From the IMG/VR virus record IMGVR_UViG_3300017991_000007, positions 1 to 64,000 of that record: a stretch of 64,000 bases of DNA; one strand, given 5' to 3'. This document shows positions 4,099 to 56,762 of this stretch, in pieces. The translations under genes were made by a program, and so were the position numbers. Position 1 is the first letter of the stretch, and every line of letters begins with the position of its first letter. This DNA is from a virus. The notes under the pieces are model-generated. The model was given only the letters and a program-made list of their open reading frames with translations. It was not told the DNA's origin and did not search any database.

Positions 4099-5160
4099 AT
4101 GGCTAAGGGACGTTCTACCGGCGGCGGGGCTGCGGCGGGCGGTGCCGCACCTGAATTACCGGAGCGCACGGTACAAGAATTAGAGAAAGCGTGGGATCAA
4201 TTTCAAGGTCAAGTGGATAACGAGCTTAACTCTTTTGTGCCTGTCATTGAGGCATGGAATCTTGATTCAGCCCGTAAAGCCGCTATTCGGAATCCCATTG
4301 ACGTTACCGATATGAGCGTTGCTGATTCACGCCGGTTGCAGCGTTTCACTAAAACTGATAACCATGACGATGCCATGCGGATGCTTGCCCGTTTGGGCGG
4401 TGTTTCGGACGTTAATACCAATGGTATCAGTATCAATTTCAAGTATGGTGATCCAAATACATTGGTGGTATCGCAAATCGGTAATGGACGTAATATCCAA
4501 TATGACGTGAAATTCAAGGGGGGTCAGCCCTCAATCACTTATCATATGTTTGTGCCAAGACCGGGTGACTCAAACTCAGTTGCCCTTATGGGTACCCGTC
4601 TTACCTCTCTTGCCAATGACTTTGGTATCAAGAGGATCAATATTCCCTCAGCCGCAGGGTCCGGGGGTGGATTGGCGGGCGGTCCAAGGAAAGAAACTGG
4701 TTCTTACACCGGATACAGGCAGTGGTTGGGCGTTGGTGCCATGCCGAAAGGGTGGGGTACTCCCCGTGAACCCGGCGGTAGTTGGCGAAGTGCCGCTACC
4801 TCAGCTATGCGGAATGGCACGTTTGTCCGTTATGGAAACGAAGTTTATAAAGTGCGCCCGGAGGCAGTAAGGCAGCTTTTGGGTAGTGAGAGAAACCCCA
4901 AGTTCTTTTCGCCGCAACAGGTTGCACAAAATCCTATTCTTTTCGGGATTTGGTCGCAGTATGGTAGAGGCGGTCCAGCAACGGTCTTTCTTGGAGGGGC
5001 CAAAACGCAGGACGCTATCAGGAATTATACGAAACTCACAATGGCTCGTAAGATGCCGCAATTTCAGAATTTGGGGTATGGCAGACCGCATCCCCGTGAT
5101 TTACAGATGCCCACTCGTACCGAGTTGAGGCGGGTAGCACCCGATTTACCGAGAGGCTAA
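4099..5160 (+). CDS. MAKG-leader protein with possible GNAT-like domain
   Basis: GGAGG RBS before ATG 4099; begins MAKGRSTGGGAAAGG; A..FGIKRI...AA...TGY..W..VG pattern. Confidence 0.7.
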   Translation: MAKGRSTGGGAAAGGAAPELPERTVQELEKAWDQFQGQVDNELNSFVPVIEAWNLDSARKAAIRNPIDVTDMSVADSRRLQRFTKTDNHDDAMRMLARLGGVSDVNTNGISINFKYGDPNTLVVSQIGNGRNIQYDVKFKGGQPSITYHMFVPRPGDSNSVALMGTRLTSLANDFGIKRINIPSAAGSGGGLAGGPRKETGSYTGYRQWLGVGAMPKGWGTPREPGGSWRSAATSAMRNGTFVRYGNEVYKVRPEAVRQLLGSERNPKFFSPQQVAQNPILFGIWSQYGRGGPATVFLGGAKTQDAIRNYTKLTMARKMPQFQNLGYGRPHPRDLQMPTRTELRRVAPDLPRG

Positions 5161-9633: not shown

Positions 9634-11459
9634 CGGAATTAAATCAAGATGAACAACGGCTACTTACTTCCCTTTCCCCGGAGGAACAGGACTTAGTTTT
9701 ACGGGTGTTGGAGGGGGATGAGGAAATACTTTCAGCCCTCTATCAAGAGGAATATGAGGAAGTACCAGTAAGCCCGCATAAGTTTTTTACCGACCCGTAC
9801 TATTTGGGGCAGACCGGAGCCGATTTATACCCACAAATCTTGAGTGACTTGGTTGACGTTTTCAGTACGGATTGTGTGGAAATTGTGCTTGGTGGTAGTA
9901 TCGGGTGGGGCAAATCCACGTTTACAGAGTTTGCAATTCTGCGGGTTTTGTATGAGGTTGCTTGCCTGAGAAATCCACAACGCTCTTTTGGTCTTATGGA
10001 GGGGTCCAGTATTGTCCTTATCAACCTTTCCGTTACCCACGCTCAAGCAAAGAAAGCCATTTTTACGGGTTTGCTTGCCAAGGTAAGGCAAAGCCCTTTT
10101 TTCAAAGAGAAATTCCCCTACGACCCGTCTGTTACCTCTGAGTTGCGCTTTCCAAAGAACATTACTATTTTTCCGGGTGCATCAACTGATAACTCTATCT
10201 TGGGGCTAAATGTCATAGGAGGTGCGGTTGACGAATCAAACTTTATGCCGGTAAGGGAGAAAGCCAAGATGCCGGGTATGAGGGGCGCAACCGTTGGTGT
10301 GTACGACAAGGCTGATTCTCTCTACAATGCTATGCTGAGGCGTATGAAATCCCGTTTTATGAAGCGGGGGAAGCTGCCCGGAAAGCTCTTTACCCTTTCC
10401 TCAGCCCAATACCCAAACGATTTTATTGAGCGTAAGACACGTCAAGCCTTGCATGATGACCGTATCTTTGTTCGTAACTACTCCCTTTGGGAAGTCAAGC
10501 CGCCGGGTGAGTATTCGGATGAGACTTTCAAGGTAGAGGTTGGCACGGATTTACAGGGATCACGGATACTCACCGGCAAAGAGCCGCCCAATACGATTGT
10601 CGGTAAGGTCATTGACGTTCCCATAGATTTTATAAAGGATTTTGAAAACGATATTGAGGGGTCCATTCGGGATATTGCCGGTATCTCTACTTTGACCGTT
10701 GACCAATTTATCAAGAATTTCAGAAAAGTAGTGGATTGCATCAATAAGAAAAGGCACCATGTTTTCACGGGGGAAAGCACAACTCTTGAGGATAATCATA
10801 AGTTTTATCGTCGGACCTATCTGAAACCAAATCCAGTTAAACCCAAGACTCGTAAGCCGGTCCTAATCCATAATCCAGAGGCCGTCCGGGTAGCGCACAT
10901 TGACCCTTCTGTATCCGGTGATGCGACGGGTATTGCGGTTGGTCATATCGCTGATATGGTCAAAGTGTCCAGAAAGCAGCCGGACGGTAGAAAAACTGAG
11001 GAATATGCACCTCTCATATTTTATGATTTGTTGCTTCAAATACGCCCGCCTTTGCATCGGGAAATTCAGTTTGACCGTGTTCGTGACGTTCTTTATGAGT
11101 TGATTAAGGATGGTATGAAAATCCAGATAGTTACGATGGACTCTTATCAGTCAGCCGAGCCTTTACAGCAACTTAGGCGTAAGGGATTGATAGCTGATTT
11201 GTTGTCAGTTGACCGGACAACCGACCCTTACGATATCCTCAAGGCCGCATTCTACGAAAACCGGGTGGATATGTACGAGCATAAGATTGCCATGCAAGAG
11301 CTTAGGCAGTTGGAGCATGACCGGCAAAAGAACAAGATTGATCACCCCGAAAGAGGCTCAAAGGACATTGCGGACGCTATGGCGGGGGTGGCATTCACTC
11401 TCACAACTTACGCATCCAGACTCTATAAACCCACTGTTGCCGTCCGAACATTCGGATAA
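9630..11459 (+). CDS. terL: Terminase large subunit
   Basis: Walker A GGSIGWGKS, Walker B AVDE, nuclease motifs HIDPS..GD and KIDHP..GSKDIADA. Confidence 0.92.
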   Translation: MTELNQDEQRLLTSLSPEEQDLVLRVLEGDEEILSALYQEEYEEVPVSPHKFFTDPYYLGQTGADLYPQILSDLVDVFSTDCVEIVLGGSIGWGKSTFTEFAILRVLYEVACLRNPQRSFGLMEGSSIVLINLSVTHAQAKKAIFTGLLAKVRQSPFFKEKFPYDPSVTSELRFPKNITIFPGASTDNSILGLNVIGGAVDESNFMPVREKAKMPGMRGATVGVYDKADSLYNAMLRRMKSRFMKRGKLPGKLFTLSSAQYPNDFIERKTRQALHDDRIFVRNYSLWEVKPPGEYSDETFKVEVGTDLQGSRILTGKEPPNTIVGKVIDVPIDFIKDFENDIEGSIRDIAGISTLTVDQFIKNFRKVVDCINKKRHHVFTGESTTLEDNHKFYRRTYLKPNPVKPKTRKPVLIHNPEAVRVAHIDPSVSGDATGIAVGHIADMVKVSRKQPDGRKTEEYAPLIFYDLLLQIRPPLHREIQFDRVRDVLYELIKDGMKIQIVTMDSYQSAEPLQQLRRKGLIADLLSVDRTTDPYDILKAAFYENRVDMYEHKIAMQELRQLEHDRQKNKIDHPERGSKDIADAMAGVAFTLTTYASRLYKPTVAVRTFG

Positions 11460-13753: not shown

Positions 13754-14230
13754 TTAGGCGATTGAGCCGGTAGTGTTGATATCGTTAATATGCCGGTATC
13801 CCGCTCCGATATTGACGCACACGGGGCCAAACCCGGTAGCAATAGACTCAGGGACCGTCAACCGCCGTCCGCAGCGTCCGCAACGCCCTTCATGCCAGAT
13901 TTCGACACTCTCAGGGAGATTGCCGGAAAGCAACCGGGTGAAAAACCAGTTGAAAACCCTTGCGCTTTGGGCATCCCGGCTGATTCGGGAACGCCGCCCG
14001 TGAAAGTACCGGGCATTCTCGGTACCCGCATCAAAGATGGTACCCAAAAAGGTGTAGTCACTGGAATTTTCCGGGCCGGTCAAAACGCTTACGAAGTGAG
14101 GCGCATCCTCATTGGGTTGCCGGACTCGGAAAGTGAGGCGATTGCCGGTATCGGTATTGAGTAGGGTAAAGTAAGCGTTTCCTGCCAAGACGAATTGCCG
14201 GATATTTTGCTCTATGATATGCCTTTCCAT
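13754..14230 (-). CDS. DUF6011-like zinc-ribbon protein
   Basis: CGRCGRRLTVPESIATGFGPVC. Confidence 0.75.
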   Translation of the reverse strand: MERHIIEQNIRQFVLAGNAYFTLLNTDTGNRLTFRVRQPNEDAPHFVSVLTGPENSSDYTFLGTIFDAGTENARYFHGRRSRISRDAQSARVFNWFFTRLLSGNLPESVEIWHEGRCGRCGRRLTVPESIATGFGPVCVNIGAGYRHINDINTTGSIA

Positions 14231-15502: not shown

Positions 15503-15835
15503 TTACGCATCCCCCTCAGTTACGAGTACCCACCCCGGCCCGCTGGTAGGATTCTCAGGAATAGCCTCATAAGCGGCCCTTTGCATGGCCTCAGTCAAAT
15601 CCCGCCGGTATTGGGCATTGCGCCTATTTGCCGCATCCATAACGTAATCCAGAGGCAAGAAAGTACCATCCCCATATTCATAGTCCGGTAGTATGGATTC
15701 ATTTTCCATAAAGGTACCGTCCGGGGCAGTAATTAGAAGCTGCCAACCGTGATCATGGTACAACTCAAAATGAAAACCGCTATCACCGGTTGCCTCAAAT
15801 CCGCTACAAATCTCAGTCCATTCGATTGCTGCCAT
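15503..15835 (-). CDS. Hypothetical protein behind operator promoter
   Basis: Conserved leader and AGGGG RBS. Confidence 0.65.
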   Translation of the reverse strand: MAAIEWTEICSGFEATGDSGFHFELYHDHGWQLLITAPDGTFMENESILPDYEYGDGTFLPLDYVMDAANRRNAQYRRDLTEAMQRAAYEAIPENPTSGPGWVLVTEGDA

Positions 15836-21197: not shown

Positions 21198-21623
21198 ATG
21201 TTTGATGCTACCTCTAATGACTTGATTTTTACTTTTGCGGATGGTTGGACAATACCGGCAAAGCTGAAATCGTTGGAACAGCACATGGATTCCCCGATTG
21301 AATACCGAGAGGGCGGTATATCAATAGCTATGCGTTTTCCGGGTCGCAGGGAGATTAATCTTACGGTTTATATGGAGGCTGCGGATGCTGCGGGTTGGCA
21401 AGAGCGTGTCAATTCGCTGGATAATTATAAAGCGGATGCGGTGTACGGTGATGCGGTACTGCATGGCTGTTGGCCCAAGAGTGTGCAAGTTGATATGGCT
21501 TGGGATGCGGCTGAGGTAGAGATTATCTCAGATTCGCTTATAGAGCCGCCTGAGATACCAGCGGTCAACTTGACTATTAAACCGGAGCGTCCGACAATGG
21601 CTAGAGTTCGTTTGATTGAATAA
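21198..21623 (+). CDS. Tail-tube (gp19)-like degenerate protein with C-terminal tag
   Basis: IEYREGG...FPG, GCWPKS; ends PTMARVRLIE. Confidence 0.6.
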   Translation: MFDATSNDLIFTFADGWTIPAKLKSLEQHMDSPIEYREGGISIAMRFPGRREINLTVYMEAADAAGWQERVNSLDNYKADAVYGDAVLHGCWPKSVQVDMAWDAAEVEIISDSLIEPPEIPAVNLTIKPERPTMARVRLIE

Positions 21624-21634
21624 AGGAGTACGTC

Positions 21635-22120
21635 ATGTATTGGCTGATAAAGTGCCTTTGGAAGCGAACAGCGGCAAGCAAGAGGGGTTATCCGAACCAG
21701 TGGCACAACAAAGACTTTAGAAATCGGGATACGCTTTTCCTGCGGATGCGGAAAGGCTCTTGGATGGATAAGTTCTTAGCGTGGGCAAGTATGAGTGGTA
21801 CGACTTACGGAGATTTGGTAGCCGTCCGAAATGACAGGTGGCACAAGGTCACTGCTTGCGACGGGGGCAATCCGCACTCCAAGTTTGTGATACATGAAAT
21901 GGTACATCATATGCAGTGTGAGAGGCGATTGACTTATGGAATGCAAGCGATTGCATATACCCTTGAGTGGGGTTGGAGGTGGGTTGCCGCCCTTTTCGGA
22001 AAGCAGACACACGCCCGGTACGATAACAAGTATGAGGTGGAAGCTTGGAATAAAGCCGGTCAAGATATCCGGGATTGGAAAGCCGATGGTCTTGATCCGA
22101 AACGCCCGTGGGTGATCTAA
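21635..22120 (+). CDS. Zincin-like (DUF4157-type) protein
   Basis: IHEMVHHMQ ... NKYEVEA. Confidence 0.6.
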   Translation: MYWLIKCLWKRTAASKRGYPNQWHNKDFRNRDTLFLRMRKGSWMDKFLAWASMSGTTYGDLVAVRNDRWHKVTACDGGNPHSKFVIHEMVHHMQCERRLTYGMQAIAYTLEWGWRWVAALFGKQTHARYDNKYEVEAWNKAGQDIRDWKADGLDPKRPWVI

Positions 22121-22401
22121 TGAAAGGCTTGCGGTATTTTGGTCATTTCAGGACACCGGCTGAGGCGATAAAGCATATCAAGTTTGTTGGTGAGGATTTG
22201 ATGCCGGGTGATTGGTTCTATAGTAAGCGGAATGGAGAGGCTTATATTTGGGACGGGGGAAACTGGATACTTATGCTTGGCAGTACCGGGGAGCCGCAGC
22301 CGATTTTCAGAAAAAAGGAGGGTAGATTCATGGAGGTCTATGAGGTCAATTACGATTTGCCGGGTAATACCCCAATGGCTGAGGTAAGGACTATTGAGTG
22401 A
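22120..22401 (+). CDS. C-terminal-tag family protein
   Basis: Ends TPMAEVRTIE. Confidence 0.65.
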   Translation: MKGLRYFGHFRTPAEAIKHIKFVGEDLMPGDWFYSKRNGEAYIWDGGNWILMLGSTGEPQPIFRKKEGRFMEVYEVNYDLPGNTPMAEVRTIE

Positions 22402-22633
22402 CTTCGACAAGAAAGAGGCCATGCGTGATCCGGGTATTGTGGGGATAGTTTCTCGCACCCTTGCACGGCATACCCATGTAACAGGTACGCCGGACCCGCT
22501 GAGTCCTGAGAAAGTTGCTGAGTGGGATGGTATGAGCAAAGTGAGGCAAGGGGATATAAAGCTGCCTAAAGGGGTTTACTATTGGGTGGGTGACTTCGAT
22601 TGCCCGATTGCAAAAGTAAGGACCATAGAATGA
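22394..22633 (+). CDS. C-terminal-tag family protein
   Basis: Ends CPIAKVRTIE; HTH tripeptide as in spike tips. Confidence 0.65.
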   Translation: MSDFDKKEAMRDPGIVGIVSRTLARHTHVTGTPDPLSPEKVAEWDGMSKVRQGDIKLPKGVYYWVGDFDCPIAKVRTIE

Positions 22634-22995
22634 GCAAACTACCAAAAGGTACGATAGTTACCAAGACGAAATTTGGGTACAAGCCTTATGTGGAATATCC
22701 GAGTATGGGGAATACTCATATCAATACATTGCAGGATTTGAAAGATTTTCTTGATGAGGTTGCCGCTGAGTATCTTTACAAACCAGCTACCAATGAACTG
22801 ATAAACCAAATCTACAGACGAATCAAAGCCGCCGTACCCGCTACCTTGGGGGTAAGGGTCAACCTGACAAGAGGTGGAAACGTCCGGGTTGAATTTGAGG
22901 GTGCTGAGGAAACCTTTGGTTGCTCCAATGACGATATGAAATACTTTTTCAGTGACCTTTCGTTTGACGTGGCAACCGTGCGGTGTATCCAATAA
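22630..22995 (+). CDS. C-terminal-tag family protein
   Basis: Ends FDVATVRCIQ. Confidence 0.65.
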   Translation: MSKLPKGTIVTKTKFGYKPYVEYPSMGNTHINTLQDLKDFLDEVAAEYLYKPATNELINQIYRRIKAAVPATLGVRVNLTRGGNVRVEFEGAEETFGCSNDDMKYFFSDLSFDVATVRCIQ

Positions 22996-23077
22996 AAAAA
23001 AAATGCCCGGTATGGGTACCGGGGCTTTGGAAGGGAATATGTGAATGGGTTTTTGTAGGCTTTATTCGTTTTTCAAT
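22995..23077 (-). ncRNA. Putative ~80-nt small RNA or empty promoter cassette
   Basis: Operator promoter (23084-23134) followed directly by a terminator at 23005-23024; no ORF between. Confidence 0.45.
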
Positions 23078-23083
23078 GATGCC

Positions 23084-23200
23084 ATTCTAGCAAGGCAGTA
23101 AAGCCTTGTCAAGTAAAAAATGCAATCAATTGCACTTTTTTTCAAAATAGTTTTTAACCCCTTGATTTTAGTTGACAATTCATAAAAGCAGTGTTAAGTT
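23084..23200. promoter_or_regulatory. Operator with divergent promoters
   Basis: TGTCAA 23107-12, TGCAATCAATTGCA 23121-34, TTGACA near 23172. Confidence 0.75.
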
Positions 23201-23206
23201 TCTTTT

Positions 23207-23482
23207 ATGGATGCGAAAAGATATAATCAAACGCCGTGCATAGGGTGTGGGTATTGTTGCCAAACCCCTTGCGTATTGGCTTTGCAGACTTACGGGATAG
23301 ACCGGCTCAAGAAAGAGCGTTGCCCGTCATTAAGGTGGGATGGTAAAAGATGGTTCTGCCAGCTTGCAGAAACGTCTGAGAGGGTCCGTAAAGACCTTTG
23401 GATAGGTGCGGGTTGTTGTTCTGCCTTAAATACCAATAGGAGAGAGAATAGACCTATTAAGCCGTGGGAATTTGGAAAATGA
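23207..23482 (+). CDS. Cys-cluster (CxxCxxCC) protein
   Basis: CIGCGYCC...CP.L...FC...GCC. Confidence 0.6.
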   Translation: MDAKRYNQTPCIGCGYCCQTPCVLALQTYGIDRLKKERCPSLRWDGKRWFCQLAETSERVRKDLWIGAGCCSALNTNRRENRPIKPWEFGK

Positions 23483-23844
23483 CTTTAAGCGGCCTCAGAA
23501 AGAAGGATAGGGATTTTGTCTTGGACCTCAAGGATTTCCTTGAGTACGAGTTGCAGAATTACGTTGTGAGGCGTTTTCAGCAAGGCGTGAATATCCTGAA
23601 TAAGCTCATATGCCAAAAAATGGAAAAGAAAATGGGTAAGGCGTATGCTATTCATAAATGGAGTTGGCAGATAAAAGAGCATCAAGGGTCGGACGTACCG
23701 GCTCATTCGCTTGGATTCCATTTGATTATATTTCCACCTAAGCCGTCACCCCTTACGTCATTCGTAGTTTCGATTGGAAAGCCGGGTTTTGAGTTTCCTT
23801 GGCCGGATCATATCGTTAAGGCAAAAGTGCGGTGTATCGCATGA
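23479..23844 (+). CDS. C-terminal-tag family protein
   Basis: Ends IVKAKVRCIA. Confidence 0.65.
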   Translation: MTLSGLRKKDRDFVLDLKDFLEYELQNYVVRRFQQGVNILNKLICQKMEKKMGKAYAIHKWSWQIKEHQGSDVPAHSLGFHLIIFPPKPSPLTSFVVSIGKPGFEFPWPDHIVKAKVRCIA

Positions 23845-24164
23845 AGCTACCCATAATATTTCCGAATCAGAATGAGAAAATAGTCCATGACTTTCGCAAG
23901 GCGTTGTCTGAGGATGAGTATTTCAATGCCTCTAAAACTTCTAAAGAGGCTAAAGAGTCTGCCTTTGGGTTTGCGAATAAATACTTGCCGAAAGGGTGGA
24001 CTTTTAATGTTAGAGATTTGGCCGGGTGGGGAGATACGGTCAAGATTCAGGTGAATTTGCAGCCGCCAAGAGGGAAGGAAATCTATACTGTAGAGGCGGT
24101 CTTGCTCATTGATGACGGGGTGTACCCGCCGCCTCTGGCAACGGTAAGGCTGGTTGGAAAGTGA
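23841..24164 (+). CDS. C-terminal-tag family protein
   Basis: Ends PPLATVRLVGK. Confidence 0.65.
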   Translation: MKLPIIFPNQNEKIVHDFRKALSEDEYFNASKTSKEAKESAFGFANKYLPKGWTFNVRDLAGWGDTVKIQVNLQPPRGKEIYTVEAVLLIDDGVYPPPLATVRLVGK

Positions 24165-24610
24165 TTGAACCACGCATAACCAAAGAGAAATTAGAGCATT
24201 TTCAGCGGACTATTGTGGATTTTCACCGCAGCAAGCTCATTATCTATGATCCCCAATACGAGTTTTATGATGCTACCCGTCAATTCTATGTTTGCACCGA
24301 TTATGATAGCTATCTAAGAAGGATTTACCGTGGATCAAAGCAGACAGATGCCGTTGTGTGGGCTGCTTTCGCTGAGGCTAAGATTCGGATGGTTGTCTTT
24401 ACCCCTATTCTCAAGTGCGCTTTGGACCGGCTTAGAAAAAAGACCCCTCGTAGGTCTAATGATCCGGTCTTTTTGAGTATGGTCCAGCTTGATACTCCTA
24501 CTATCCGAAAGTTTGAACATGCTTGCGCTCAAGGTAGTGTTTTGGGGCTTTGGGAAACGATGACCCGTGATCCCGCTCCGTTGCTTGCCCGTGTAAGGTT
24601 GGTAGGATGA
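24161..24610 (+). CDS. C-terminal-tag family protein
   Basis: Ends PLLARVRLVG. Confidence 0.65.
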   Translation: MIEPRITKEKLEHFQRTIVDFHRSKLIIYDPQYEFYDATRQFYVCTDYDSYLRRIYRGSKQTDAVVWAAFAEAKIRMVVFTPILKCALDRLRKKTPRRSNDPVFLSMVQLDTPTIRKFEHACAQGSVLGLWETMTRDPAPLLARVRLVG

Positions 24611-24945
24611 GTAGTATAACGGAAAGGCGATACAACCGCATAAAGAAAAAGCTATACGATGCCCTTGAGTACGATATGCCATTGCTCCATGATGAGAAAC
24701 AGGGGCAGGATGAGGTATATAGAACAATCAAAAGCGTTTTGAAATCTCCGAGTACGTGGGACGTTAAAGTGTGGGTAAACAAAACGGTCCAACCGGCATT
24801 AAAGCAACCGGGTATGTTCTATTATTGTGCAAAACTGCGGGTTTTGGGAACGCCGGATGAGGTTCATTTGAATATAGTAGCCGCTCAAGGGGGAGGTAGA
24901 GATATCAAGGAATTGCGGTTGGCAAGAGTGAGGTGTATTGCCTAA
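24607..24945 (+). CDS. C-terminal-tag family protein
   Basis: Ends LRLARVRCIA. Confidence 0.65.
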   Translation: MSSITERRYNRIKKKLYDALEYDMPLLHDEKQGQDEVYRTIKSVLKSPSTWDVKVWVNKTVQPALKQPGMFYYCAKLRVLGTPDEVHLNIVAAQGGGRDIKELRLARVRCIA

Positions 24946-25241
24946 TGGATAAAGTTGTGGTTGATGGATTCAGGCAATTATTGAAAGACGCTATGCGGGA
25001 ATGTATGAGGATCAAGGGTATCGACTCCCCCAATAAATTTGATGATACTGCTTTGGACTTTATTCAAAATGCGTTGGAAAGGCACCTATGGCCTCAGTAT
25101 GAGGTATCGGTGCGGGTTTATAGGGGAGTATTTGAGGCTAAGATAATCCATGTTGATAATAATGAGGTAGAATGGCTTTGGCCGTATTTGGATATGCTGA
25201 TTTATAGTAAGGAGTTGGCAGTGGTAAGGACAATACAATGA
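24945..25241 (+). CDS. C-terminal-tag family protein
   Basis: Ends ELAVVRTIQ. Confidence 0.65.
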   Translation: MDKVVVDGFRQLLKDAMRECMRIKGIDSPNKFDDTALDFIQNALERHLWPQYEVSVRVYRGVFEAKIIHVDNNEVEWLWPYLDMLIYSKELAVVRTIQ

Positions 25242-26376: not shown

Positions 26377-26883
26377 ATGAGGCGATATTGGGCTTACTTG
26401 AAAGTGGTTTTGAGGCACAAATACTACGTTTACAAGGCGTGTCGGATAATGAAAGTGCCTTGGTGGATTGCGGTAGTCCATGATTGGCGCAAGTTCCTAC
26501 CGAGAGAGTTTATCCCATACGCTCACAACTTCTACAATGCGGACGGCTCCAAGCGTACTGTTCGGGATAAAACCGGTGCCTACGACCCTGCGGCTCAAGC
26601 AAATGCGTTTCAGCTTGCATGGCTGGATCATCAACGGGCAAGGCACCATTGGCAAGCTTGGTGCGTGATAGGTGACGGCGGTAAGCTGAGTCCAATGACG
26701 ATGCCGGAAATCTTTGTGAGGGAGTTGGTTGCCGATTGGATGGGAGCGGGGGCTGCTTACGACAATTACAGTCCGCAGGGTTGGTACAAAGCAAATAAAG
26801 ATTCTTTGGTTGTTACCCCGTCAACTACGATGCTCATTGAGCGATTGTTGCAGGATGAGGTACCGGTAGAGAATCCTTTTTAG
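26377..26883 (+). CDS. DUF5662-like HD-type protein
   Basis: HK..V, HDW.KF.P.EF, AW..H.....HHWQ.W, ADW. Confidence 0.7.
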   Translation: MRRYWAYLKVVLRHKYYVYKACRIMKVPWWIAVVHDWRKFLPREFIPYAHNFYNADGSKRTVRDKTGAYDPAAQANAFQLAWLDHQRARHHWQAWCVIGDGGKLSPMTMPEIFVRELVADWMGAGAAYDNYSPQGWYKANKDSLVVTPSTTMLIERLLQDEVPVENPF

Positions 26884-27572: not shown

Positions 27573-27908
27573 TTATTCCGGTACCGGTGTGGGGAATCCC
27601 CCCGGCGGTAAAGTGTTTAGCTTACTTTCAAGCCTTATATTCGAGTCACGCAATTGCTGTAATATCGCAGTTTGCGCTTTCTGGTTCTCTTGAACATCAT
27701 CCATTTCAATGCGGTAGATATCCTCATCAACCTTTGTATCGCCAAGCTCTTTCACGTCCGTTTGTAGGTTTTCAATCGCATGGTCCCTATCTGAGTTGAC
27801 GAAATCGGAGATAAAGATGATTGCGGTGCCAATGGCTACGATACCAACGGCAACAGCCACTATCTTGCTCCAAAGCGGGAAAGGTGTTTTCTCTCCATTT
27901 TTTGTCAT
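27573..27908 (-). CDS. Membrane-anchored coiled-coil protein
   Basis: Single TM helix then coiled coil. Confidence 0.65.
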   Translation of the reverse strand: MTKNGEKTPFPLWSKIVAVAVGIVAIGTAIIFISDFVNSDRDHAIENLQTDVKELGDTKVDEDIYRIEMDDVQENQKAQTAILQQLRDSNIRLESKLNTLPPGGFPTPVPE

Positions 27909-27920: not shown

Positions 27921-28589
27921 TTAGGTAATAGTACGTCTGCCTACCCTTGGTCCTTGCGGTGCTGCGGGTGTGGGGGTCGGTGTTCTCAGCGGACCTCTCA
28001 TACCGGCTACCACTTGTCTCATATCTATTGTACCCCATTGTGAGGCGGCTGGAAATGTGCCGTCCCTATGGATATTCCGAATACGGTTATCCAGATTGTT
28101 GACCCGGTTTACTATGCGGTCATTTTGGGCTATGAGCCGTTGCCTTTGGCCCGGTGTGGTACCTCTGGCATTTGCGTTGGCAATAACCCTATCCTGTTGC
28201 TGGATAAGACGGCGGCGTTGGTTGATGAGGGTTTGGGCTTGCCTATCCCGTTGCTGGACTGCCATTTGCGTAATATTACGTCTGGTTTCATGCCCACGCT
28301 GCCTTATTCGTTGATCCGCATTCAGCCTCACACCCTCAATCGCTGTAGCGGCTCTTTGGGAGTCAACTCCCCACCTGAATATCGTTTGGGTGGGTAGTCT
28401 GGTTGCAGCAAGTTCCTTAGCAATCCTTACTTGGTTTTGCTCGCTGAGATTGGAGCGTCCTAAATCCATCATATCAAGACTGCCTAAGAGTCTTTGGTGT
28501 TCCCTAACTATGTTTTCAACGGGAGTTGGTTCTATAATAGCAACAGCCCCGCCGCCCGCTGCGCCTCCACCTGATCTGCCTTTAGCCAT
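27921..28589 (-). CDS. MAKG-leader Arg-rich protein
   Basis: MAKGRSGGGAAGGG; R/Q-rich. Confidence 0.8.
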   Translation of the reverse strand: MAKGRSGGGAAGGGAVAIIEPTPVENIVREHQRLLGSLDMMDLGRSNLSEQNQVRIAKELAATRLPTQTIFRWGVDSQRAATAIEGVRLNADQRIRQRGHETRRNITQMAVQQRDRQAQTLINQRRRLIQQQDRVIANANARGTTPGQRQRLIAQNDRIVNRVNNLDNRIRNIHRDGTFPAASQWGTIDMRQVVAGMRGPLRTPTPTPAAPQGPRVGRRTIT

Positions 28590-29239
28590 TATCTACCTCC
28601 AATAACTCGACTACGTTCTACTGCAAGACTGAGTAATTCAACACGCCGTCGCATATCGTTTTGCGCCCCTGAAAGCCTAAAGTTGCCCTCATTCCGCATG
28701 GTAGCTGCTATTTTGGTTTCGGATGCTCTTGCGGCTGCTAGTCTGCGTTCAAGTTGTGCCGTGGGAAATGTCCGGGCAAGGCCGTCCGCTATTGGTGAAT
28801 TACCCCTGAAAGGCGGTGGAATGCTCCCAATTCTTGTGCTTCTATTCCACATACTATTACTCACACCGTCTGGTATGGTTGTTAGGTTGCGTTGACGGGT
28901 TGACAGTACGCCGATTGTCTCTGCGGGCGGTCTTGCTCTTGATGGTAAAGGTCGTGATCCGCTGCCTTGAAGGGGAGCGGTTGGTGCGTGTTCTACGAGT
29001 ATGCCCCGTTGCCGTGCGCCTTGGAGTGGACCGGACTTGGAGCGTTGTGCGGCAAGCTCTCTGGTTCGCCATTCAGCTACCTGTGTGTTCATGGCTGAGA
29101 TTGCTCCCGGTGTATGTCCGGGGAACGGAAAGCGGGCCATGACTCGGTTTTCCTCATCATTGAGCATTGTGTTAATATCGTTGTTACTTAATGGGGCGGC
29201 TCCCGCTGCGGCTCCCCCTCCCGCTCTGCCTTTAGCCAT
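28589..29239 (-). CDS. MAKG-leader Arg-rich protein
   Basis: MAKGRAGGGAAAG. Confidence 0.8.
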   Translation of the reverse strand: MAKGRAGGGAAAGAAPLSNNDINTMLNDEENRVMARFPFPGHTPGAISAMNTQVAEWRTRELAAQRSKSGPLQGARQRGILVEHAPTAPLQGSGSRPLPSRARPPAETIGVLSTRQRNLTTIPDGVSNSMWNRSTRIGSIPPPFRGNSPIADGLARTFPTAQLERRLAAARASETKIAATMRNEGNFRLSGAQNDMRRRVELLSLAVERSRVIGGR

Positions 29240-29249
29240 ACTTTATCTC

Positions 29250-29765
29250 CTATTCCGGTTGAATGCGCCTTGCCGCAATCCGGTTTACGTCCCTGCGGGG
29301 AGTTGGCGGTGTTGGTGTGGTACCGGCGGGTCTATTTACTCTTTGACCTCTTAGAAACATCGTATCAGGGTTTGCGCCCCGGATTCGGATACCGGCTCTT
29401 TCCATATGCTCAAATTGTCTCTGCGTTGATCCAATGCGGGATATGCCTCCAATTGCGTTGACATATCGAATGCGGGCAACCTCTTGCTGCCCTAAAGCTC
29501 TATCCCGTGCGGCTCCGGTAAGTACGGATGCTCTTTGTTGCCGTCTGCGTATCTCATTTGCCATAGAAACGAGTCTATCAGCACTCCTAGCAGTGGACCG
29601 TAATTGGCGAATCTCATTGACGGCAAAGGCACGGTCAATCAAATCACCCCCGGTAGCATCCTGAATGGCAAGACGTAGGGCATCAATCTCATTATTAAGC
29701 TGTTCGTTGGTGATATCACCCATTCCGGCGGTTCCACCACTCCCGCCCGCACGTCCTTTAGCCAT
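29250..29765 (-). CDS. MAKG-leader Arg-rich protein
   Basis: MAKGRAGGSGG; ends RIAARRIQPE. Confidence 0.8.
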   Translation of the reverse strand: MAKGRAGGSGGTAGMGDITNEQLNNEIDALRLAIQDATGGDLIDRAFAVNEIRQLRSTARSADRLVSMANEIRRRQQRASVLTGAARDRALGQQEVARIRYVNAIGGISRIGSTQRQFEHMERAGIRIRGANPDTMFLRGQRVNRPAGTTPTPPTPRRDVNRIAARRIQPE

Positions 29766-29778
29766 TGGTTACTCCTTT

Positions 29779-30423
29779 TTACGTTGGCTCAATACGCCGT
29801 CTTGCGATTCTTTCAGCTTGTTGCCGGGTAGCTGCCCTTTGAGGTGTTTGGGTGAATAGTCGGTTGGTCGCTGCATTGGCAACGGCTTGTGCTTCCCTGC
29901 GGGATGCTCCTGCGTCCCTTGCAGCCCTGAAAGCGTCCGCTCTTACCACGTCACGGTTTGCTGCGGTGTTAGCACCAAAAGCCCGGAATGTCCGGTTGGC
30001 GGCTCTATCCGCTGCCCGGATAGCAACAGGCGGTGCGCCGGTAGCAGTTCTGGTTTGGGTGCGGCGGTCAAGGGCATTGAGAATGATCCCATTTCGGACT
30101 GAGTGTGACCGGGTAGCTCTCTGCCTCATTGGACCAATTCTTCTACCCGCAACCCTCATATCAACACTTTCTTGGACAAAATCTCTGGAAAGACGGCCAA
30201 TGGTGCGAAGGTTGGCACTGGATATGACGCTATCGGCAAGCCTATCAGCAAGGCGTTGGAGTTGGGTGACGCTGGTTACGTTCCCAAGGTCGTTAAAGCC
30301 TCCAAGTATCTGATTCACACGGTCTGTTGCCCACTCGACATTGCCAAGTCCTGCGGCTCTACCTATTGCAGCCTCAACGCCGCCGCCCCCTGCGGCCCCG
30401 CCGCCTGATCTACCCTTTGCCAT
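29779..30423 (-). CDS. MAKG-leader Arg/Ala-rich protein
   Basis: MAKGRSGGGAAGGGG; ends RIARRRIEPT. Confidence 0.8.
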   Translation of the reverse strand: MAKGRSGGGAAGGGGVEAAIGRAAGLGNVEWATDRVNQILGGFNDLGNVTSVTQLQRLADRLADSVISSANLRTIGRLSRDFVQESVDMRVAGRRIGPMRQRATRSHSVRNGIILNALDRRTQTRTATGAPPVAIRAADRAANRTFRAFGANTAANRDVVRADAFRAARDAGASRREAQAVANAATNRLFTQTPQRAATRQQAERIARRRIEPT

Positions 30424-30453
30424 GACACGCTCCTAGAGGGAGAAAGGTAACTG

Positions 30454-30630
30454 TTATCCAGTGATTCGTCTTGCGGCAATGCGAGCTACGTTAGCTGCGG
30501 TGCGGGCAATCCGTCCAACCCTTTGCCGGGTGGTTGGGGTTGCGGCTCTGGCAGGACGTACACGGACGGTCTTTTCCTTTTCGATAACAACGCCGCCCCC
30601 GGCTCCCCCGCCTTTTGCTCCTTTAGCCAT
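30454..30630 (-). CDS. 58-aa MAKG-leader basic peptide (missed by ORF track)
   Basis: AAGGAG RBS; MAKGAKGGGAGGGVVIEKEKTVRVRPARAATPTTRQRVGRIARTAANVARIAARRITG. Confidence 0.8.
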   Translation of the reverse strand: MAKGAKGGGAGGGVVIEKEKTVRVRPARAATPTTRQRVGRIARTAANVARIAARRITG

Positions 30631-30739
30631 GACTGACTCCTTATAAGTAGTGATTTGTCAAAGCACAATACAATCTGTGCGCTCTTAAAGTATAGAATAT
30701 TGGGCAAGCCGTGGCAAGCTCCTTTTGGTGGGGAAAAGG

Positions 30740-30771
30740 AAAGCCCCCTACCATACGGCAAGGGGCTTTTC
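30740..30771 (-). terminator. Terminator hairpin
   Basis: AAAGCCCC...GGGGCTTTT. Confidence 0.55.
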
Positions 30772-32808: not shown

Positions 32809-33204
32809 ATGAAATTTGTATTCCATGATTCTTGTTATTACTGCGGGGATGAGGTAGAGGCTGAGTTTCACCAATATGAAGTAACCCGAATGCAAGTTGG
32901 TACGGCTCTTATGTCAAAGGGGTGGGAACAATGTATTAATGCGTCCGGGTGGGACGTATGGAAATGCCCAAAGTGCCAAAAAGCGGAAAGTGAGGCAACG
33001 GTGAAATTACTTGTAGAGTGGCAACCATATGATGAGGCACCTCAGAAAAGTCAAATTAAGGTCAAGGATAAAAACAATACCGCTGAGGTAAAGAAAGCTT
33101 TGTATGCGGATTACATGGAGTCCGGCGGGTTGTCTGAGGATGATATGGATGGATTTACCCCGGATACTTTCGTAACCATTCTGGAAATGTGGGAATTAAA
33201 GTGA
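32809..33204 (+). CDS. Zn-ribbon hypothetical protein
   Basis: CYYC...CPKC; promoter at 32757 and GGGGGTAGC RBS. Confidence 0.6.
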   Translation: MKFVFHDSCYYCGDEVEAEFHQYEVTRMQVGTALMSKGWEQCINASGWDVWKCPKCQKAESEATVKLLVEWQPYDEAPQKSQIKVKDKNNTAEVKKALYADYMESGGLSEDDMDGFTPDTFVTILEMWELK

Positions 33205-33461
33205 CGGTCAAAATCCACAACCATGAATCTTGCCCCAAGTGCGGGTATGATTTTCAGAAATTGGCAGACCCCGTGTACGTCAAAGATATGTGTCCTTTCT
33301 GCGGTTGGCCGAATAAACCGAAAGCGATAGGGGAATTTGGTAAGACGGTTTTCATGGACGGGGGTAGAGCTTTTCCTGCGGATATCCTTGAGGGTATGGC
33401 TGAGAAATACGATAAGATGGTCAATAATCCACCAATGGCTAAAGCTAAAACGATTTGTTGA
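33201..33461 (+). CDS. C-terminal-tag family protein (Zn ribbon plus scaffold/protease-like fragment)
   Basis: CPKC/CPFC; DGGRAFP..ILEGMAEKYD; ends PPMAKAKTIC. Confidence 0.6.
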   Translation: MTVKIHNHESCPKCGYDFQKLADPVYVKDMCPFCGWPNKPKAIGEFGKTVFMDGGRAFPADILEGMAEKYDKMVNNPPMAKAKTIC

Positions 33462-33471
33462 GAGGTCTTGA

Positions 33472-33765
33472 GTGTACCTGAAATTCACCGGCAAAGATAA
33501 AGGCTCTTGGAAAATTGGATCATCGGTTTTCTGCTACAAGAACGGTGACGCTTTTCCTATGGGTAAGGTCATTGCTATCCATGAAAAAGAGGTATCAGTG
33601 GGTATCCGCTTTGTGTTTACCGCTGAGATAGAGCTTGCCTATTGGGGGGAAGCTTTGAAAATGGCAGATGGTTGTGAAAAGCTTTTTGAAAACGCCGGTC
33701 AAAAAATTTGGGTGGATATTGATCCTGAATGCCCGGAAATCGCTGAGGTACGGAGCATATGCTGA
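33472..33765 (+). CDS. C-terminal-tag family protein
   Basis: Ends PEIAEVRSIC. Confidence 0.65.
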   Translation: MYLKFTGKDKGSWKIGSSVFCYKNGDAFPMGKVIAIHEKEVSVGIRFVFTAEIELAYWGEALKMADGCEKLFENAGQKIWVDIDPECPEIAEVRSIC

Positions 33766-34157
33766 CTCACAAACAGCTTATGAAAGTTGCCGGTATTCGG
33801 ACTAGGACTGAGGCGGTAGAGAAATTGGCTGAGGGTAAGATAGGGGTTGATATGGGTATCAAAAAGAGAATTCCTTGGCTGAAAATCGACACCAAGAAAT
33901 ACAAAATCCGGGCTTGGAGTGATCCTAAAACCGGAATCCCTACGAGATATAGATTCACGGTAATTGACAAGGAATTGGTTAAGGTCGTACCGGCCTCAAA
34001 GGTTTTTCTGAATAGTGTTTGTGTGCTTGATGCAATGAGCAATAGACCCGTAACCGGGGCAGATATGGAGTGGAATGCCTACTCCCCCAATAGCCCGGAC
34101 TTGGATGTAGAGATAGATTTTAGACCGCTGCTTGCTCAAGTCCGATTAATTTCTTGA
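33759..34157 (+). CDS. C-terminal-tag family protein
   Basis: Ends PLLAQVRLIS. Confidence 0.65.
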   Translation: MLTHKQLMKVAGIRTRTEAVEKLAEGKIGVDMGIKKRIPWLKIDTKKYKIRAWSDPKTGIPTRYRFTVIDKELVKVVPASKVFLNSVCVLDAMSNRPVTGADMEWNAYSPNSPDLDVEIDFRPLLAQVRLIS

Positions 34158-35731: not shown

Positions 35732-35805
35732 GCGCTTATAGCTCAATGGTAGAGCAAGGGACTCTAAATCCCCGTGCATAGGTTCAAATCCTATTAAGCG
35801 CACCA
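35732..35805 (+). tRNA. tRNA with CUA anticodon (amber suppressor)
   Basis: GCGCTTA/TAAGCGC acceptor stem, GCTC/GAGC D stem, anticodon loop CTCTAAA, ATAGG-TTCAAAT-CCTAT T arm, encoded CCA. Confidence 0.9.
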
Positions 35806-44155: not shown

Positions 44156-44500
44156 ATGTTAAACGAACACTTTTTAGTGATTGCGGGCAACGGGGGTCAA
44201 CATGACGCTGAGGTTACTGAATTAACCTCTCAGGGTGTGGACCTTTGCCGTGTGCAACGTATTCAACACGGGCGGGGGCGGCGTACTGCGGAATTGGTAA
44301 GGACTATTTACGGATGGTCCGTCCGTCACGGTAGCGGCCTCAATAATTTCGGGATCATGCGTCATTCGTGTCCTTTTGAGGATGCCGTTCAATTCGGTAT
44401 CAATTGGGCAAACCGTGATCCTGATAATCGGGAATTTTTTGTCCGGCGGTCTGCATTCAGCAATATGACTGAGGATGACCGGCGGTTAATTGGTGCGTAA
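44156..44500 (+). CDS. Hypothetical protein
   Basis: GGGGTAGC RBS. Confidence 0.65.
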   Translation: MLNEHFLVIAGNGGQHDAEVTELTSQGVDLCRVQRIQHGRGRRTAELVRTIYGWSVRHGSGLNNFGIMRHSCPFEDAVQFGINWANRDPDNREFFVRRSAFSNMTEDDRRLIGA

Positions 44501-53942: not shown

Positions 53943-54074
53943 AGACGTGAAAAAAGCCTTACACACCATTTTAGGAAACGCAAAGATATAGGGTTGACAA
54001 AAATTTTTTGCATAAGTACACTGATTTCTGTATGATACTTGGTATAGAAACCTAAAGTTTCAAGGAGAACGACA

Positions 54075-54329: not shown

Positions 54330-56762
54330 ATGAAAGACCGTTTTGAATTCGATCTGTTCGTTCAAAAAGCGGAGGAACGGGAGGGCCGTCCTTTCTTGAC
54401 GATCTATGCCACCGATACGGCTGAGGATCAACACAAGGAAAGATGTTCCCGTACTTGTCTTGAACGGATGCAGGATCAAATCAAACGTCATTCCGTTGAC
54501 CTATTGAATTCCCACCATGACGCAGTAGGTATGGGGAAAGCGGTTGATTCCTTCATTGTTGATGCCGGACAATTCGATTCGGAGCTTAACGGGGAAACGG
54601 CTCTACTGGTTGATGTAGAGCTTGATCCCCGTTTTCCGCAAGCGGTTGCGCTGCATGAATCAGCAATGAAGGGGGAGCATAAACATAAATTCTCCATAGG
54701 CGGGCGGCTTAACAGGCAGAATCCAAAACCTTTCTATTATGAGCGTGGTAAGAAAGTGCTTGATGACGTGGAATTAGACCATATCACTGCTTGCCGTGCG
54801 CCCAAAGCGTCAAATCAAAGGACTCACATTGCAGAGGCCGTATTCAAGACTTTGGATATGACTGAGGATGATGAGGTTTTGATTCTTGGGGATACCGAGG
54901 ATGACGGGTTGGAGTTTGATAAGAAAGGTATGGGAGGTCTGTTGCCGATTGGCGATAGAGCAAGACCTTGGGATGCGTCCGGGGCAGTTCGGCGTGTGCG
55001 AGATTGGGCAAACGCCAATGAAAAGCCGAATGCCAAGTATGGACGTGCCTTTCTCTGGCATGACAAGACCAACCCGGATGTATTCGGAGCTTATAAGCTG
55101 CCCTATGCTGATATTGTGAATGGTCAATTGACTGCAATGCCAAGAGGTCTTTTTGCAGCGGCGGCTGCGGTCCAAGGCGCAAGAGGCGGCGTGGACATTC
55201 CTGCGGCTGATAGAGGAATGGTGCAACGAAAGCTTGCCTCTTATTATAGTAAGATGCGGACTCAGTTTGACGATGCCAATATTCAGGTGCCTTGGGCGCA
55301 TGAAATGGCTATTGAGAAAGTCTTTGGGTCTGATTTCTTTACTGTACTCAAATCTTTGGACTCAGCGTACTTTGAGGGTGAAACCGCACCCGCTGGTAAA
55401 GGTCCAAGGGAGCATACCCATAAATTCACCGGACGGTTGAATGGGGAGAGTGGTACGTTAATCGGTATGACTACAAGTTGGTCTGCGGGGGAACGTCACG
55501 CTCATATGGTTGATCTTGTTGGTAAGGATGAGGCGGTAACGGCCCCGGCAAGCAGGGGATTTAATCATACTCACAACTTAGAAATGCCGAGCGTTTCATC
55601 CATTACCGAGAAACAGTTTGACAAGGTTCTAATGGAAGCAGCCAAGGAACTACCGATTATGTTCTTTGGGAATGATAAATTGAAAAAACTTGCAGAAAAG
55701 GCCGTTTCAAGACAAGAGCCGGAAAGCGAGCATGAAATGGATAAGGACAAGATCGAAAACGTAGAGGCGGGCGCACCGGTAGAGGAAACCCCTGATACCG
55801 AGACTATTGATACGCCTGAAAACGCAGAAAGCGAGCAAGCCGCTGAGAGCGTTACCGAGCCGGTTGAAACCGAGACACCCTCTGAGGATGATCCTATGGA
55901 GCTTACCAAAGAGGATACCGGGATTCTGCGTAAGATTGTCAATGCTTTTCGGAGTGATCCGAAAGAGGATAACCGTCCTTTGCAGGATAGGATTATCGAC
56001 GCTGCGGACCATATCACTGAAAACTCAGTTTCGCAGGACAACTTTGATGAGGTTGCGGGCGCAAGCCTTTACCTGTTGAAGCGTCTTACCGGACTTGAGT
56101 TGGACCGTGATGAGCTTGCCGTTAAGTCTGCAAGGCTCTTGAGTCAGCTTGAAATGATTGCGGATAAGGATGCCCCGGTTGCCCTTGAGGTGGAAACGCC
56201 TGAAAGTGTCGATACGGGGGAGCCGTCTGATGACGTGTCCAAAACCACTGAGGACGGGGATACCCCGGAGGACACAGAAACTACTCCAATGGAGGTTGAG
56301 GAAATGAATGCTGAGGAATTAAAAGCCTTTGGCAAGGAGTTGGCAACCGGTTTGGTGGAAGGTCTTACCCCGGCAATTACGCAGGGAGTAGTTGACACAT
56401 TCCGCAAAGAGGGTTTGCTGCCCGCCGCAAAGGAAATCGAAACTGAAACCCCGGCTGAGGCTCCGAAAGAGGCCGCACCGGAAACCACTGAGGCTCCGAA
56501 AGAGGAAACTCCTAAAGAGACTCAGACCCCCGAAACACCGGAAACTGAAACCGAGACACCCGCTGAAACCCCGAATGAGGTTGCCAAGACTAAAGACGTT
56601 TTGGATGAAATTCTGAAAACCGTCCAAGGTCTTGATACCCGCATTACGGAGATTGAGGGACGGCCCGGACCATCCCGCAGCATTGCCGGTCAAGACCCCG
56701 CTCCTGCATTGCCGCAAAAGAAAAACAACGGCATTTTCGCAGGTGCATTGTTTCGGAAATAA
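54330..56762 (+). CDS. Prohead protease fused to insertion domains and scaffold
   Basis: YAT...D.H.ER, H, FSIGG, LDHI.....ASN; acidic TPE-repeat C-terminus. Confidence 0.85.
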   Translation: MKDRFEFDLFVQKAEEREGRPFLTIYATDTAEDQHKERCSRTCLERMQDQIKRHSVDLLNSHHDAVGMGKAVDSFIVDAGQFDSELNGETALLVDVELDPRFPQAVALHESAMKGEHKHKFSIGGRLNRQNPKPFYYERGKKVLDDVELDHITACRAPKASNQRTHIAEAVFKTLDMTEDDEVLILGDTEDDGLEFDKKGMGGLLPIGDRARPWDASGAVRRVRDWANANEKPNAKYGRAFLWHDKTNPDVFGAYKLPYADIVNGQLTAMPRGLFAAAAAVQGARGGVDIPAADRGMVQRKLASYYSKMRTQFDDANIQVPWAHEMAIEKVFGSDFFTVLKSLDSAYFEGETAPAGKGPREHTHKFTGRLNGESGTLIGMTTSWSAGERHAHMVDLVGKDEAVTAPASRGFNHTHNLEMPSVSSITEKQFDKVLMEAAKELPIMFFGNDKLKKLAEKAVSRQEPESEHEMDKDKIENVEAGAPVEETPDTETIDTPENAESEQAAESVTEPVETETPSEDDPMELTKEDTGILRKIVNAFRSDPKEDNRPLQDRIIDAADHITENSVSQDNFDEVAGASLYLLKRLTGLELDRDELAVKSARLLSQLEMIADKDAPVALEVETPESVDTGEPSDDVSKTTEDGDTPEDTETTPMEVEEMNAEELKAFGKELATGLVEGLTPAITQGVVDTFRKEGLLPAAKEIETETPAEAPKEAAPETTEAPKEETPKETQTPETPETETETPAETPNEVAKTKDVLDEILKTVQGLDTRITEIEGRPGPSRSIAGQDPAPALPQKKNNGIFAGALFRK

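What the first reader, a model, noticed from the sequence alone, without database searches (positions are those of the whole stretch)
27921..30630. Tandem array of five basic proteins with a shared MAKG-Gly-rich N-terminal leader
Seen: five consecutive minus-strand genes start MAKGAKGGGAGGG, MAKGRSGGGAAGGGG, MAKGRAGGSGG, MAKGRAGGGAAAG and MAKGRSGGGAAGGG, then diverge. All are very Arg/Ala-rich. Three end in RIA(A/R)RRI and one in RVGRRTI. The first (58 aa, 30454-30630) is missed by the ORF track and is little more than leader plus tail. A sixth member lies 23 kb away at 4099. The leader resembles a histone N-terminal tail in composition. Established: T4 internal proteins share a short N-terminal capsid-targeting sequence. 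Inference: the leader is a sorting or modification signal for DNA-bound proteins that are packaged and possibly ejected.
Basis: partly seen in the sequence, partly recalled or inferred. Interest (0 to 1): 0.85.

Follow-up and report, generated by a model that had tools for sequence, protein, structure and literature searches.

The report
Gly-rich leader on orphan polycationic phage proteins
An uncultivated 107-kb phage puts the same 13-17-residue glycine/alanine-rich start on six otherwise unrelated, very arginine-rich and almost lysine-free proteins found nowhere else; the start is kept by selection on the peptide and is most likely an address or processing tag, but where it sends the proteins is untested.

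Summary
Six genes start MAKG plus a Gly/Ala tract: five in tandem on the minus strand (27921-30630) and one at 4099. There are no others in the 106.6-kb genome.

- Conservation is at peptide level. B and E share 14/14 leader residues but differ in 10 codons. There is no conserved RNA fold and no long DNA repeat.
- The bodies show no similarity. They share a layout: leader, short acidic segment, Arg-rich body, Thr/Pro linker, and a basic tail in A, B, C and E.
- In B and C the only lysine is K3 of the leader.
- B, D, E and F match only themselves in libraries built from about 15 billion proteins. Leader-pattern scans of viral, metagenome and genome contigs gave only chance hits.

Function is unresolved. 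My best reading (about 0.33) is an address/pro-peptide tag that loads polycationic, nucleic-acid-binding proteins into the head, like the T4 capsid-targeting sequence. No structural protein carries the leader, no gp21-type protease is present, and the array lies in the accessory region.

A second, unrelated C-terminal tag marks 12-13 neighbouring small proteins. This scan has noted comparable leader-tagged arrays in other phages (unchecked notes).

The parts
30454..30630 (-). Gene A, 58 aa: leader + short Glu/Lys segment + Thr/Pro-containing basic stretch + RIAARRI tail; the minimal member
   Evidence: SD AAGGAG 7 nt upstream; TAA stop
29779..30423 (-). Gene B, 214 aa, 35 Arg, the only Lys is K3; tail RIARRRI; orphan
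   Evidence: only itself among 5.8e9 clusters; no fold
29250..29765 (-). Gene C, 171 aa, 28 Arg, the only Lys is K3; Thr/Pro linker + RIAARRI tail; TAG stop
28589..29239 (-). Gene D, 216 aa, Pro-rich basic body, no family tail; orphan
27921..28589 (-). Gene E, 222 aa; start overlaps D's stop by 1 nt; disordered leader, acidic short helices, confident long helical hairpin (res 78-174), disordered Thr/Pro linker + RVGRRTI tail; orphan
4099..5160 (+). Gene F, 353 aa: same leader (one extra Thr) on a larger body of ordinary composition; lies upstream of the DUF4417 nuclease / HExxH protein / ParB / TerL block; orphan
   Evidence: only itself among 1.84e9 representatives; model unusable
30689..30717 (-). 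Promoter-like site TTGCCA-17-TATACT ahead of gene A (no TG extension)
30732..30770 (-). Terminator-like hairpin + T run (coordinates approximate) that separates the upstream 152-aa gene from the array operon
   Evidence: read from the sequence
27573..27908 (-). Last gene of the operon, 111 aa: N-terminal transmembrane helix + coiled coil + Pro-rich end; 12 nt after E; no homologues in phage records
27273..27294 (-). Terminator-like site downstream of the operon
54330..56762 (+). Context only (inferred partner): 810-aa protein between portal and MCP; residues about 205-322 resemble annotated head maturation proteases; residues about 420-790 are a polyanionic Glu/Thr/Pro-rich extension (net about -55)
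   Evidence: no Pfam, PHROG or PDB sequence match

Best explanation
The six genes encode a phage-private family of modular polycationic proteins. Each has a flexible N-terminal leader (Met-Ala-Lys-Gly-[Arg/Ala]-x followed by an 8-11-residue Gly/Ala tract), then a short net-acidic segment, then an Arg-rich, Lys-, Cys- and aromatic-poor helical or disordered body. In four members a Thr/Pro linker and a basic C-terminal peptide follow. SHOWN: the genes are real and native. The leader and the tail are the only parts held constant, and they are held at peptide level. The family has no relatives in any collection searched. INFERRED: the bodies bind nucleic acid through bulk positive charge. The leader, probably together with the acidic segment, is an address/pro-peptide that brings these proteins into the assembling head. 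The polyanionic extension of the protease-scaffold protein would hold them there until DNA replaces it, and the leader may be trimmed after one of the Glu residues that follow it. The proteins would then neutralise packaged DNA and could leave with it. In function this would resemble the T4 capsid-targeting sequence on polymorphic internal proteins, but with an unrelated tag and no demonstrated cleavage.
For: Leader on six bodies with no BLASTP similarity. B and E share 14/14 leader residues with 10 different codons. DNA repeats among the genes are confined to the leader codons, at 60-83% identity. No conserved mRNA fold (-2.5 kcal/mol) and no Rfam match. GC3 of the array (0.42-0.47) equals the genome's (0.47), while GC1 and GC2 are raised, so the composition is selected at protein level. 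Shared charge plan: residues 15-50 have 4-7 acidic against 2-3 basic residues in B-F, and the rest has 25-42 basic against 10-22 acidic. The first Glu lies at residue 17-29, in [LIV]-x-E context in A, E and F. In the model of E the leader and tail are disordered ends on a confident helical hairpin. F carries the tag on a different kind of body and lies in the terminase block. A probable maturation protease with a net -55 extension lies between portal and MCP. [quoted passage not shown]
Against: No structural protein has the leader or any Gly/Ala run of 8 or more. No Peptidase_S77 (T4 gp21), S78 or ClpP-type protease is detectable in six frames. The array is on the minus strand in the accessory region, behind its own sigma70-like promoter. 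The [LIV]-x-E context occurs in only 3 of 6 members and is weakly significant at best. T4 internal proteins contact DNA through lysines (PMC3012670), whereas these proteins are nearly Lys-free. There are no homologues and no proteomics, and the host is unknown.
Confidence: 0.33

Rival explanations
1. Non-virion accessory proteins. The array makes cytoplasmic nucleic-acid binders (host nucleoid or ribosome takeover, coating of the phage genome, or anti-defence). The leader is a shared docking or stability module: its Gly/Ala tract is hard for AAA+ proteases to grip. The Arg-rich tail is an RNA/DNA-binding or partner-binding peptide.
For: Position among small accessory genes, opposite strand, own sigma70-like promoter. 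No leader on any head or tail protein. Tails resemble arginine-rich motifs. Gly/Ala tracts weaken ClpX grip (PMC9531181, PMC6677533). Orphan status and fast body divergence fit arms-race genes.
Against: A stability cap would not need the invariant MAKG start. It gives no reason why F, in the packaging block and of different composition, should carry the same tag. Sigma70-like promoters also precede head genes (53994, conserved in L002), so promoter class does not show early expression.
Confidence: 0.3
2. Modification handle. The leader presents a single lysine (K3) and a free Ala N-terminus on a flexible Gly/Ala tether, on an otherwise Lys-free protein. This would allow site-specific acylation, conjugation or cross-linking, while the Lys-free body escapes lysine-directed modification or tagging.
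For: B and C have 35 and 28 Arg but Lys only at position 3. The rest of the proteome has K 5.6%, so 211 Lys-free residues have a chance of about 5e-6. B, C and E meet the published 'lysine desert' definition (PMC13696103).
Against: A, D, E and F have other lysines. No ligase, acyltransferase or transglutaminase was identified. Lys at codon 3 (AAA/AAG) may simply favour translation. The Pup-proteasome link proposed for lysine deserts concerns high-GC Actinobacteria, and this phage is 47% GC.
Confidence: 0.1
3. Expression-level constraint. The shared start is kept because the first codons optimise translation initiation or coupling within the operon, not because of the peptide.
For: Met-Ala-Lys starts occur on other genes of this phage (18261, 38655, 26893). 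D and E are translationally coupled.
Against: Codons vary freely while the residues do not. The GC-rich Gly/Ala codons are not favourable for initiation. No conserved structure. F is not in the operon.
Confidence: 0.05
4. Artefact: the minus-strand ORFs are not genes.
For: The genome is mostly plus-strand, and antisense ORFs of up to 153 aa exist.
Against: Five abutting ORFs of 171-222 aa plus A, each with an SD and ATG. GC skew flips locally. GC1 > GC2 > GC3. The leader and tail are shared at protein level only.
Confidence: 0.01

Closest known systems
Capsid-targeting sequence (CTS) on the polymorphic internal proteins of T4-like phages (IPI-III, Alt)
   Same: A short N-terminal peptide is the only conserved part of a set of otherwise diverse, basic proteins of one phage. 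The tagged set includes a larger protein of a different kind (compare Alt and F). An acidic stretch with Glu follows the tag.
   Different: No sequence likeness. The tag is a Gly/Ala tract of 13-17 residues, not a 10-residue propeptide ending in L/I-X-E. No gp21-family protease. The genes are not near head genes. The proteins are Arg-rich and Lys-poor instead of contacting DNA through lysines. Packaging and cleavage are unproven.
Protamine-like core proteins of eukaryotic dsDNA viruses (adenovirus pVII/Mu, baculovirus P6.9) - comparison from my own knowledge
   Same: Very high Arg, low Lys, DNA-neutralising composition. Adenoviral precursors lose an N-terminal piece at a Gly-Gly site.
   Different: No homology (no Pfam hit). 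Tailed phages are not known to need condensing proteins. Here there are five divergent paralogues with helical-hairpin cores.
Lysine-desert proteins (PMC13696103)
   Same: B (211 aa), C (168 aa) and E (164 aa) have continuous Lys-free regions that meet the published definition.
   Different: The genome is not GC-rich, so compositional drift does not explain it. The proposed Pup-proteasome rationale is unlikely to apply.
C-terminal capsid-targeting tails (HK97 protease, encapsulin cargo-loading peptides) and ClpX-type C-terminal recognition signals - from my own knowledge
   Same: A short terminal peptide on a flexible linker, as in the Thr/Pro linker + basic tail of A, B, C and E.
   Different: No sequence match was tested or found. 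The tail resembles TerL's last residues only in form (2 of 168 other proteins fit, 0.3 expected).

Membership tests
T4-type CTS-tagged internal proteins | One short N-terminal peptide shared by otherwise dissimilar proteins of the same phage | tested here: met
   Six proteins; bodies have no BLASTP similarity
T4-type CTS-tagged internal proteins | Propeptide of about 10 residues ending in L/I-X-E, cleaved after Glu (PMC9026906) | tested here: inconclusive
   Residues 8-10 are Gly/Ser. The first Glu is at residue 17-29. [LIV]-x-E occurs in A (15-17), E (18-20) and F (20-22) only; B has G-V-E, C has T-N-E, D has N-D-E
T4-type CTS-tagged internal proteins | gp21-family prohead protease (Peptidase_S77) encoded by the phage | tested here: not met
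   No match in six frames at E<=1, and none for S78 or ClpP. A different, probable maturation protease is suggested by tblastn to annotated proteases
T4-type CTS-tagged internal proteins | Proteins present in proheads and virions and ejected with the DNA | not testable with these tools
   Uncultivated phage; no proteome available
T4-type CTS-tagged internal proteins | Tag or its core also present on scaffold-core or head proteins | tested here: not met
   No leader-like element and no Gly/Ala run of 8 or more outside the six genes
Lysine-desert proteins | Continuous Lys-free region of at least 150 residues, or at least 50% of the protein (PMC13696103) | tested here: met
   B residues 4-214, C residues 4-171, E residues 59-222; D is borderline (107 aa); A and F do not qualify
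Protamine-like viral DNA-condensing proteins | Arg-dominated polycation with little Lys; binds and condenses virion DNA | tested here: inconclusive
   Composition met (R 13-17%, K about 1%, net +12 to +19). Binding and virion location untestable. No homology
Sec/Tat or double-glycine secretion leaders | Hydrophobic h-region (Sec/Tat), or a 15-30-aa leader ending in Gly-Gly with a C39 peptidase transporter | tested here: not met
   The tract is Gly/Ala only and is followed by acidic residues. A C39 peptidase was not specifically searched for

The most novel reading that the evidence does not exclude
A tailed phage loads protamine-like, lysine-free, arginine-rich proteins into its head using a two-ended address: a Gly/Ala-tethered N-terminal tip and a basic C-terminal peptide. 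A polyanionic protease-scaffold extension would act as a stand-in for DNA. Together with the second C-terminal tag on 12-13 neighbouring proteins, this would make terminal peptide 'postcodes' a general way in which this phage sorts a fast-evolving cargo repertoire.
Probability: 0.12. Interest if true: 0.8.

Novelty: new variant of a known kind. Interest (0 to 1): 0.52.

Why it matters
If the leader is an address tag, it is a new, very simple one: five fixed residues plus a Gly/Ala tether. It could be used to load proteins into a phage head. It would also extend the T4 internal-protein principle to an unrelated phage lineage and to arginine-based, lysine-free polycations. The clean separation of a frozen 14-residue peptide from bodies that have diverged beyond recognition makes the family a good natural test case for short linear motifs in phage proteins. 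The single conserved lysine in otherwise lysine-free proteins is unusual in a genome of 47% GC. Practical value is limited by the unknown host and the complete lack of relatives.

Tried and rejected
- Homology: Pfam, PHROGs and NCBIfam gave nothing for A-F or the operon neighbours. Searches of the 5.8e9-cluster and 1.84e9-representative libraries returned only the query for B, D, E and F. tblastn of C and the TM protein against phage records found nothing.
- Relatives of the phage: the portal finds one 5.7-kb fragment (59% identity) and distant phages only. TerL is 36-38% and MCP about 30% identical to cultured phages. That is too distant for synteny.
- L002's MAKG-starting ORF is the orthologue of 54075-54293, which lacks the leader, so the start is coincidental.
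- Leader DNA patterns in viral, metagenome and genome contigs hit only unrelated proteins, one per contig.
- Structure: AlphaFold of F was unusable (pLDDT 36). The atlas model of B was poor. The model of E gave only generic helical-hairpin matches.
- An RNA element was rejected. Recent duplication or gene conversion was rejected. Foreign origin was rejected (GC3).
- The array tail is not the neighbouring C-terminal tag: it scores at background against that tag's matrix.
- A secretion-signal reading was rejected from the sequence.
- Promoter class does not separate early genes from head genes.
- TAG read-through by the CUA tRNA would add only 5 residues to C; the other five genes end in TAA.

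Full report
WHAT IS THERE. The window is the first 64 kb of a complete 106,648-bp phage genome with direct terminal repeats. The phage has a contractile tail. It encodes a portal (52101-53942), an MCP (56833-58146), TerL (9630-11459), a class II ribonucleotide reductase, a ParB-like nuclease and a Cas4-like exonuclease. It is far from any cultured phage: portal 29%, MCP about 30% and TerL 36-38% identity.

A scan of the whole genome finds no further member. Each gene has an ATG and a GGAG-type ribosome-binding site. The genes are 10-30 nt apart, or overlap by one base in the case of D and E. They form an operon. It begins after a terminator-like hairpin and a TTGCCA-17-TATACT promoter-like site, and it ends with a 111-aa membrane/coiled-coil protein and a terminator-like site.

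THE LEADER IS A PEPTIDE-LEVEL FEATURE UNDER SELECTION. Nucleotide conservation begins at the ATG. Upstream, only the ribosome-binding site is shared. Synonymous sites are scrambled: B and E have 14 identical residues out of 14 but differ in 10 codons, and other pairs behave similarly. DNA repeats among the genes are confined to the leader codons, at 60-83% identity, so there has been no recent duplication or gene conversion. There is no conserved mRNA structure and no Rfam match. The raised G+C of the array lies in codon positions 1 and 2. GC3 equals the genome's, so the genes are native and their odd composition is a protein-level trait.

ANATOMY. After the leader the bodies have no detectable similarity, but they share a plan:
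- The Gly/Ala tract ends at residue 13-17.
- The first Glu follows at residue 17-29.
- Residues 15-50 are net acidic in B-F.
- The rest is strongly cationic.
- A, B, C and E end in a Thr/Pro-rich linker and a basic peptide, found nowhere else in the genome.
- A is little more than leader, linker and tail.

Taken together, the array proteins have R 15.3% against 4.7% in the rest of the proteome, K 1.2% against 5.6%, Tyr 0.1% against 3.1%, and no Cys. In B and C the only lysine is K3 of the leader. These two proteins and E meet the published definition of a lysine desert. A single-sequence model of E places the leader (1-20) and the linker and tail (177-222) as disordered ends on a confident helical hairpin (residues 78-174, pLDDT 80-93). 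No specific structural relative was found.

UNIQUENESS. B, D, E and F match only themselves in the largest protein libraries available. C and the operon's membrane protein have no match in phage records. Back-translated leader patterns scanned over viral, metagenome and prokaryote-genome contigs returned only unrelated proteins, never two per contig.

WHAT IT DOES. Two facts carry the argument. First, a 13-17-residue end is frozen while everything behind it has drifted. Second, the same end sits on F, a larger protein of ordinary composition in another operon. That is how a recognition tag behaves. It is not how the conserved core of a fold behaves. The closest precedent is the T4 capsid-targeting sequence, the only conserved part of a diverse set of internal proteins (PMC3012670), which is removed by gp21 after L/I-X-E (PMC9026906).

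Points in favour of a head destination here:
- The acidic, Glu-containing segment after the tag.
- [LIV]-x-E in A, E and F.
- F's position next to the terminase genes.
- A probable maturation protease whose long extension is strongly polyanionic (net about -55), a natural holder for polycations.

Points against:
- The tag is absent from every structural protein.
- There is no gp21-, HK97- or ClpP-type protease.
- The array lies among accessory genes on the other strand.
- Promoter class does not settle timing, because similar sigma70-like sites also precede head genes.

I therefore give the address/pro-peptide model about 0.33 and a cytoplasmic nucleic-acid-binding role about 0.30. In that second role the leader would be a docking or protease-resistant cap; Gly/Ala tracts weaken ClpX grip (PMC9531181, PMC6677533). 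A modification-handle role for K3 gets about 0.10. The remainder is unknown.

CONTEXT THAT BEARS ON THE READING. Twelve or thirteen small plus-strand proteins flank the array (21.2-25.2 kb, 33.2-34.2 kb, and one at 104954). They share a different C-terminal peptide (Pro-x-h-Ala-x-Val-Arg-x-Ile/Val-x), again on unrelated bodies: 11 observed against 0.1 expected. So this phage uses terminal peptides on accessory proteins more than once, which strengthens the view that such ends are signals. The array's tail is not that tag. Earlier notes of this scan describe leader-tagged basic arrays in other uncultivated phages and likewise name the T4 CTS as the nearest precedent. Those notes are unchecked and are not evidence for this case.

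VERDICT. This is a real and statistically secure feature. It is a new variant of the 'shared terminal tag on divergent phage proteins' theme. The tag is unusual (a Gly/Ala tether), the cargo composition is unusual (arginine-based, lysine-free), and there is a second conserved end. Its destination and function remain untested.

Noticed in passing
window 21198-25241, 33189-34157; genome 104954-105406: 12-13 small plus-strand proteins with unrelated bodies end in the same C-terminal peptide (Pro-x-h-Ala-x-Val-Arg-x-Ile/Val-x). 11 observed against 0.1 expected, with no body similarity by BLASTP. The two clusters flank the MAKG array.
   Followed up: partly
window 35732-35805 (+): ARAGORN calls a tRNA with anticodon CUA (amber-suppressor type, labelled Pyl). 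TAG ends only 4 of 41 large plus-strand genes. Read-through would add 87 codons to 26377-26883 and 27 codons to 91854-93992.
   Followed up: partly
window 2952, 14310, 15906, 19695, 32757, 34154, 38160 and others; genome 90362, 95746: About 20 copies of a near-consensus promoter TTGACA-N17 with a TG-extended -10. Many are preceded by an inverted repeat of the GTGCAATCGCTTGCA type flanked by A/T runs, a possible operator or terminator element. They are concentrated in 0-50 kb.
   Followed up: partly
window 54330-56762 (+): 810-aa protein between portal and MCP. It has a protease-like N-terminal part (tblastn to annotated head maturation proteases, 42-48% identity over about 100 aa), a polyanionic Glu/Thr/Pro-rich extension (net about -55) and a short basic-hydrophobic C-terminal end. 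No Pfam or PHROG family.
   Followed up: partly
window 9630-11459 and 58739-59839: TerL and a 366-aa head-module protein both end in a Pro-Thr-Val-Ala-Val peptide (…PTVAVRTFG and …PTVAVSLI). In form this resembles both terminal tag families. It is a weak, post-hoc observation.
   Followed up: partly
window 13754-14230 (-), 15503-15835 (-), 44156-44500 (+): Three further predicted proteins of 110-158 aa contain no lysine at all (two have 11-12% Arg), so lysine avoidance may extend beyond the array.
   Followed up: no
window 6628-7785 (+): 385-aa protein with an HExxH motif at residue 125, two genes downstream of F. No family match. It is a possible metalloprotease.
   Followed up: partly
L002 4376-4699 and window 53943-54293: The small basic gene after the portal, and its TTGACA-N17 promoter, are conserved in the only close relative found (59% portal identity, a 5.7-kb fragment).
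   Followed up: partly
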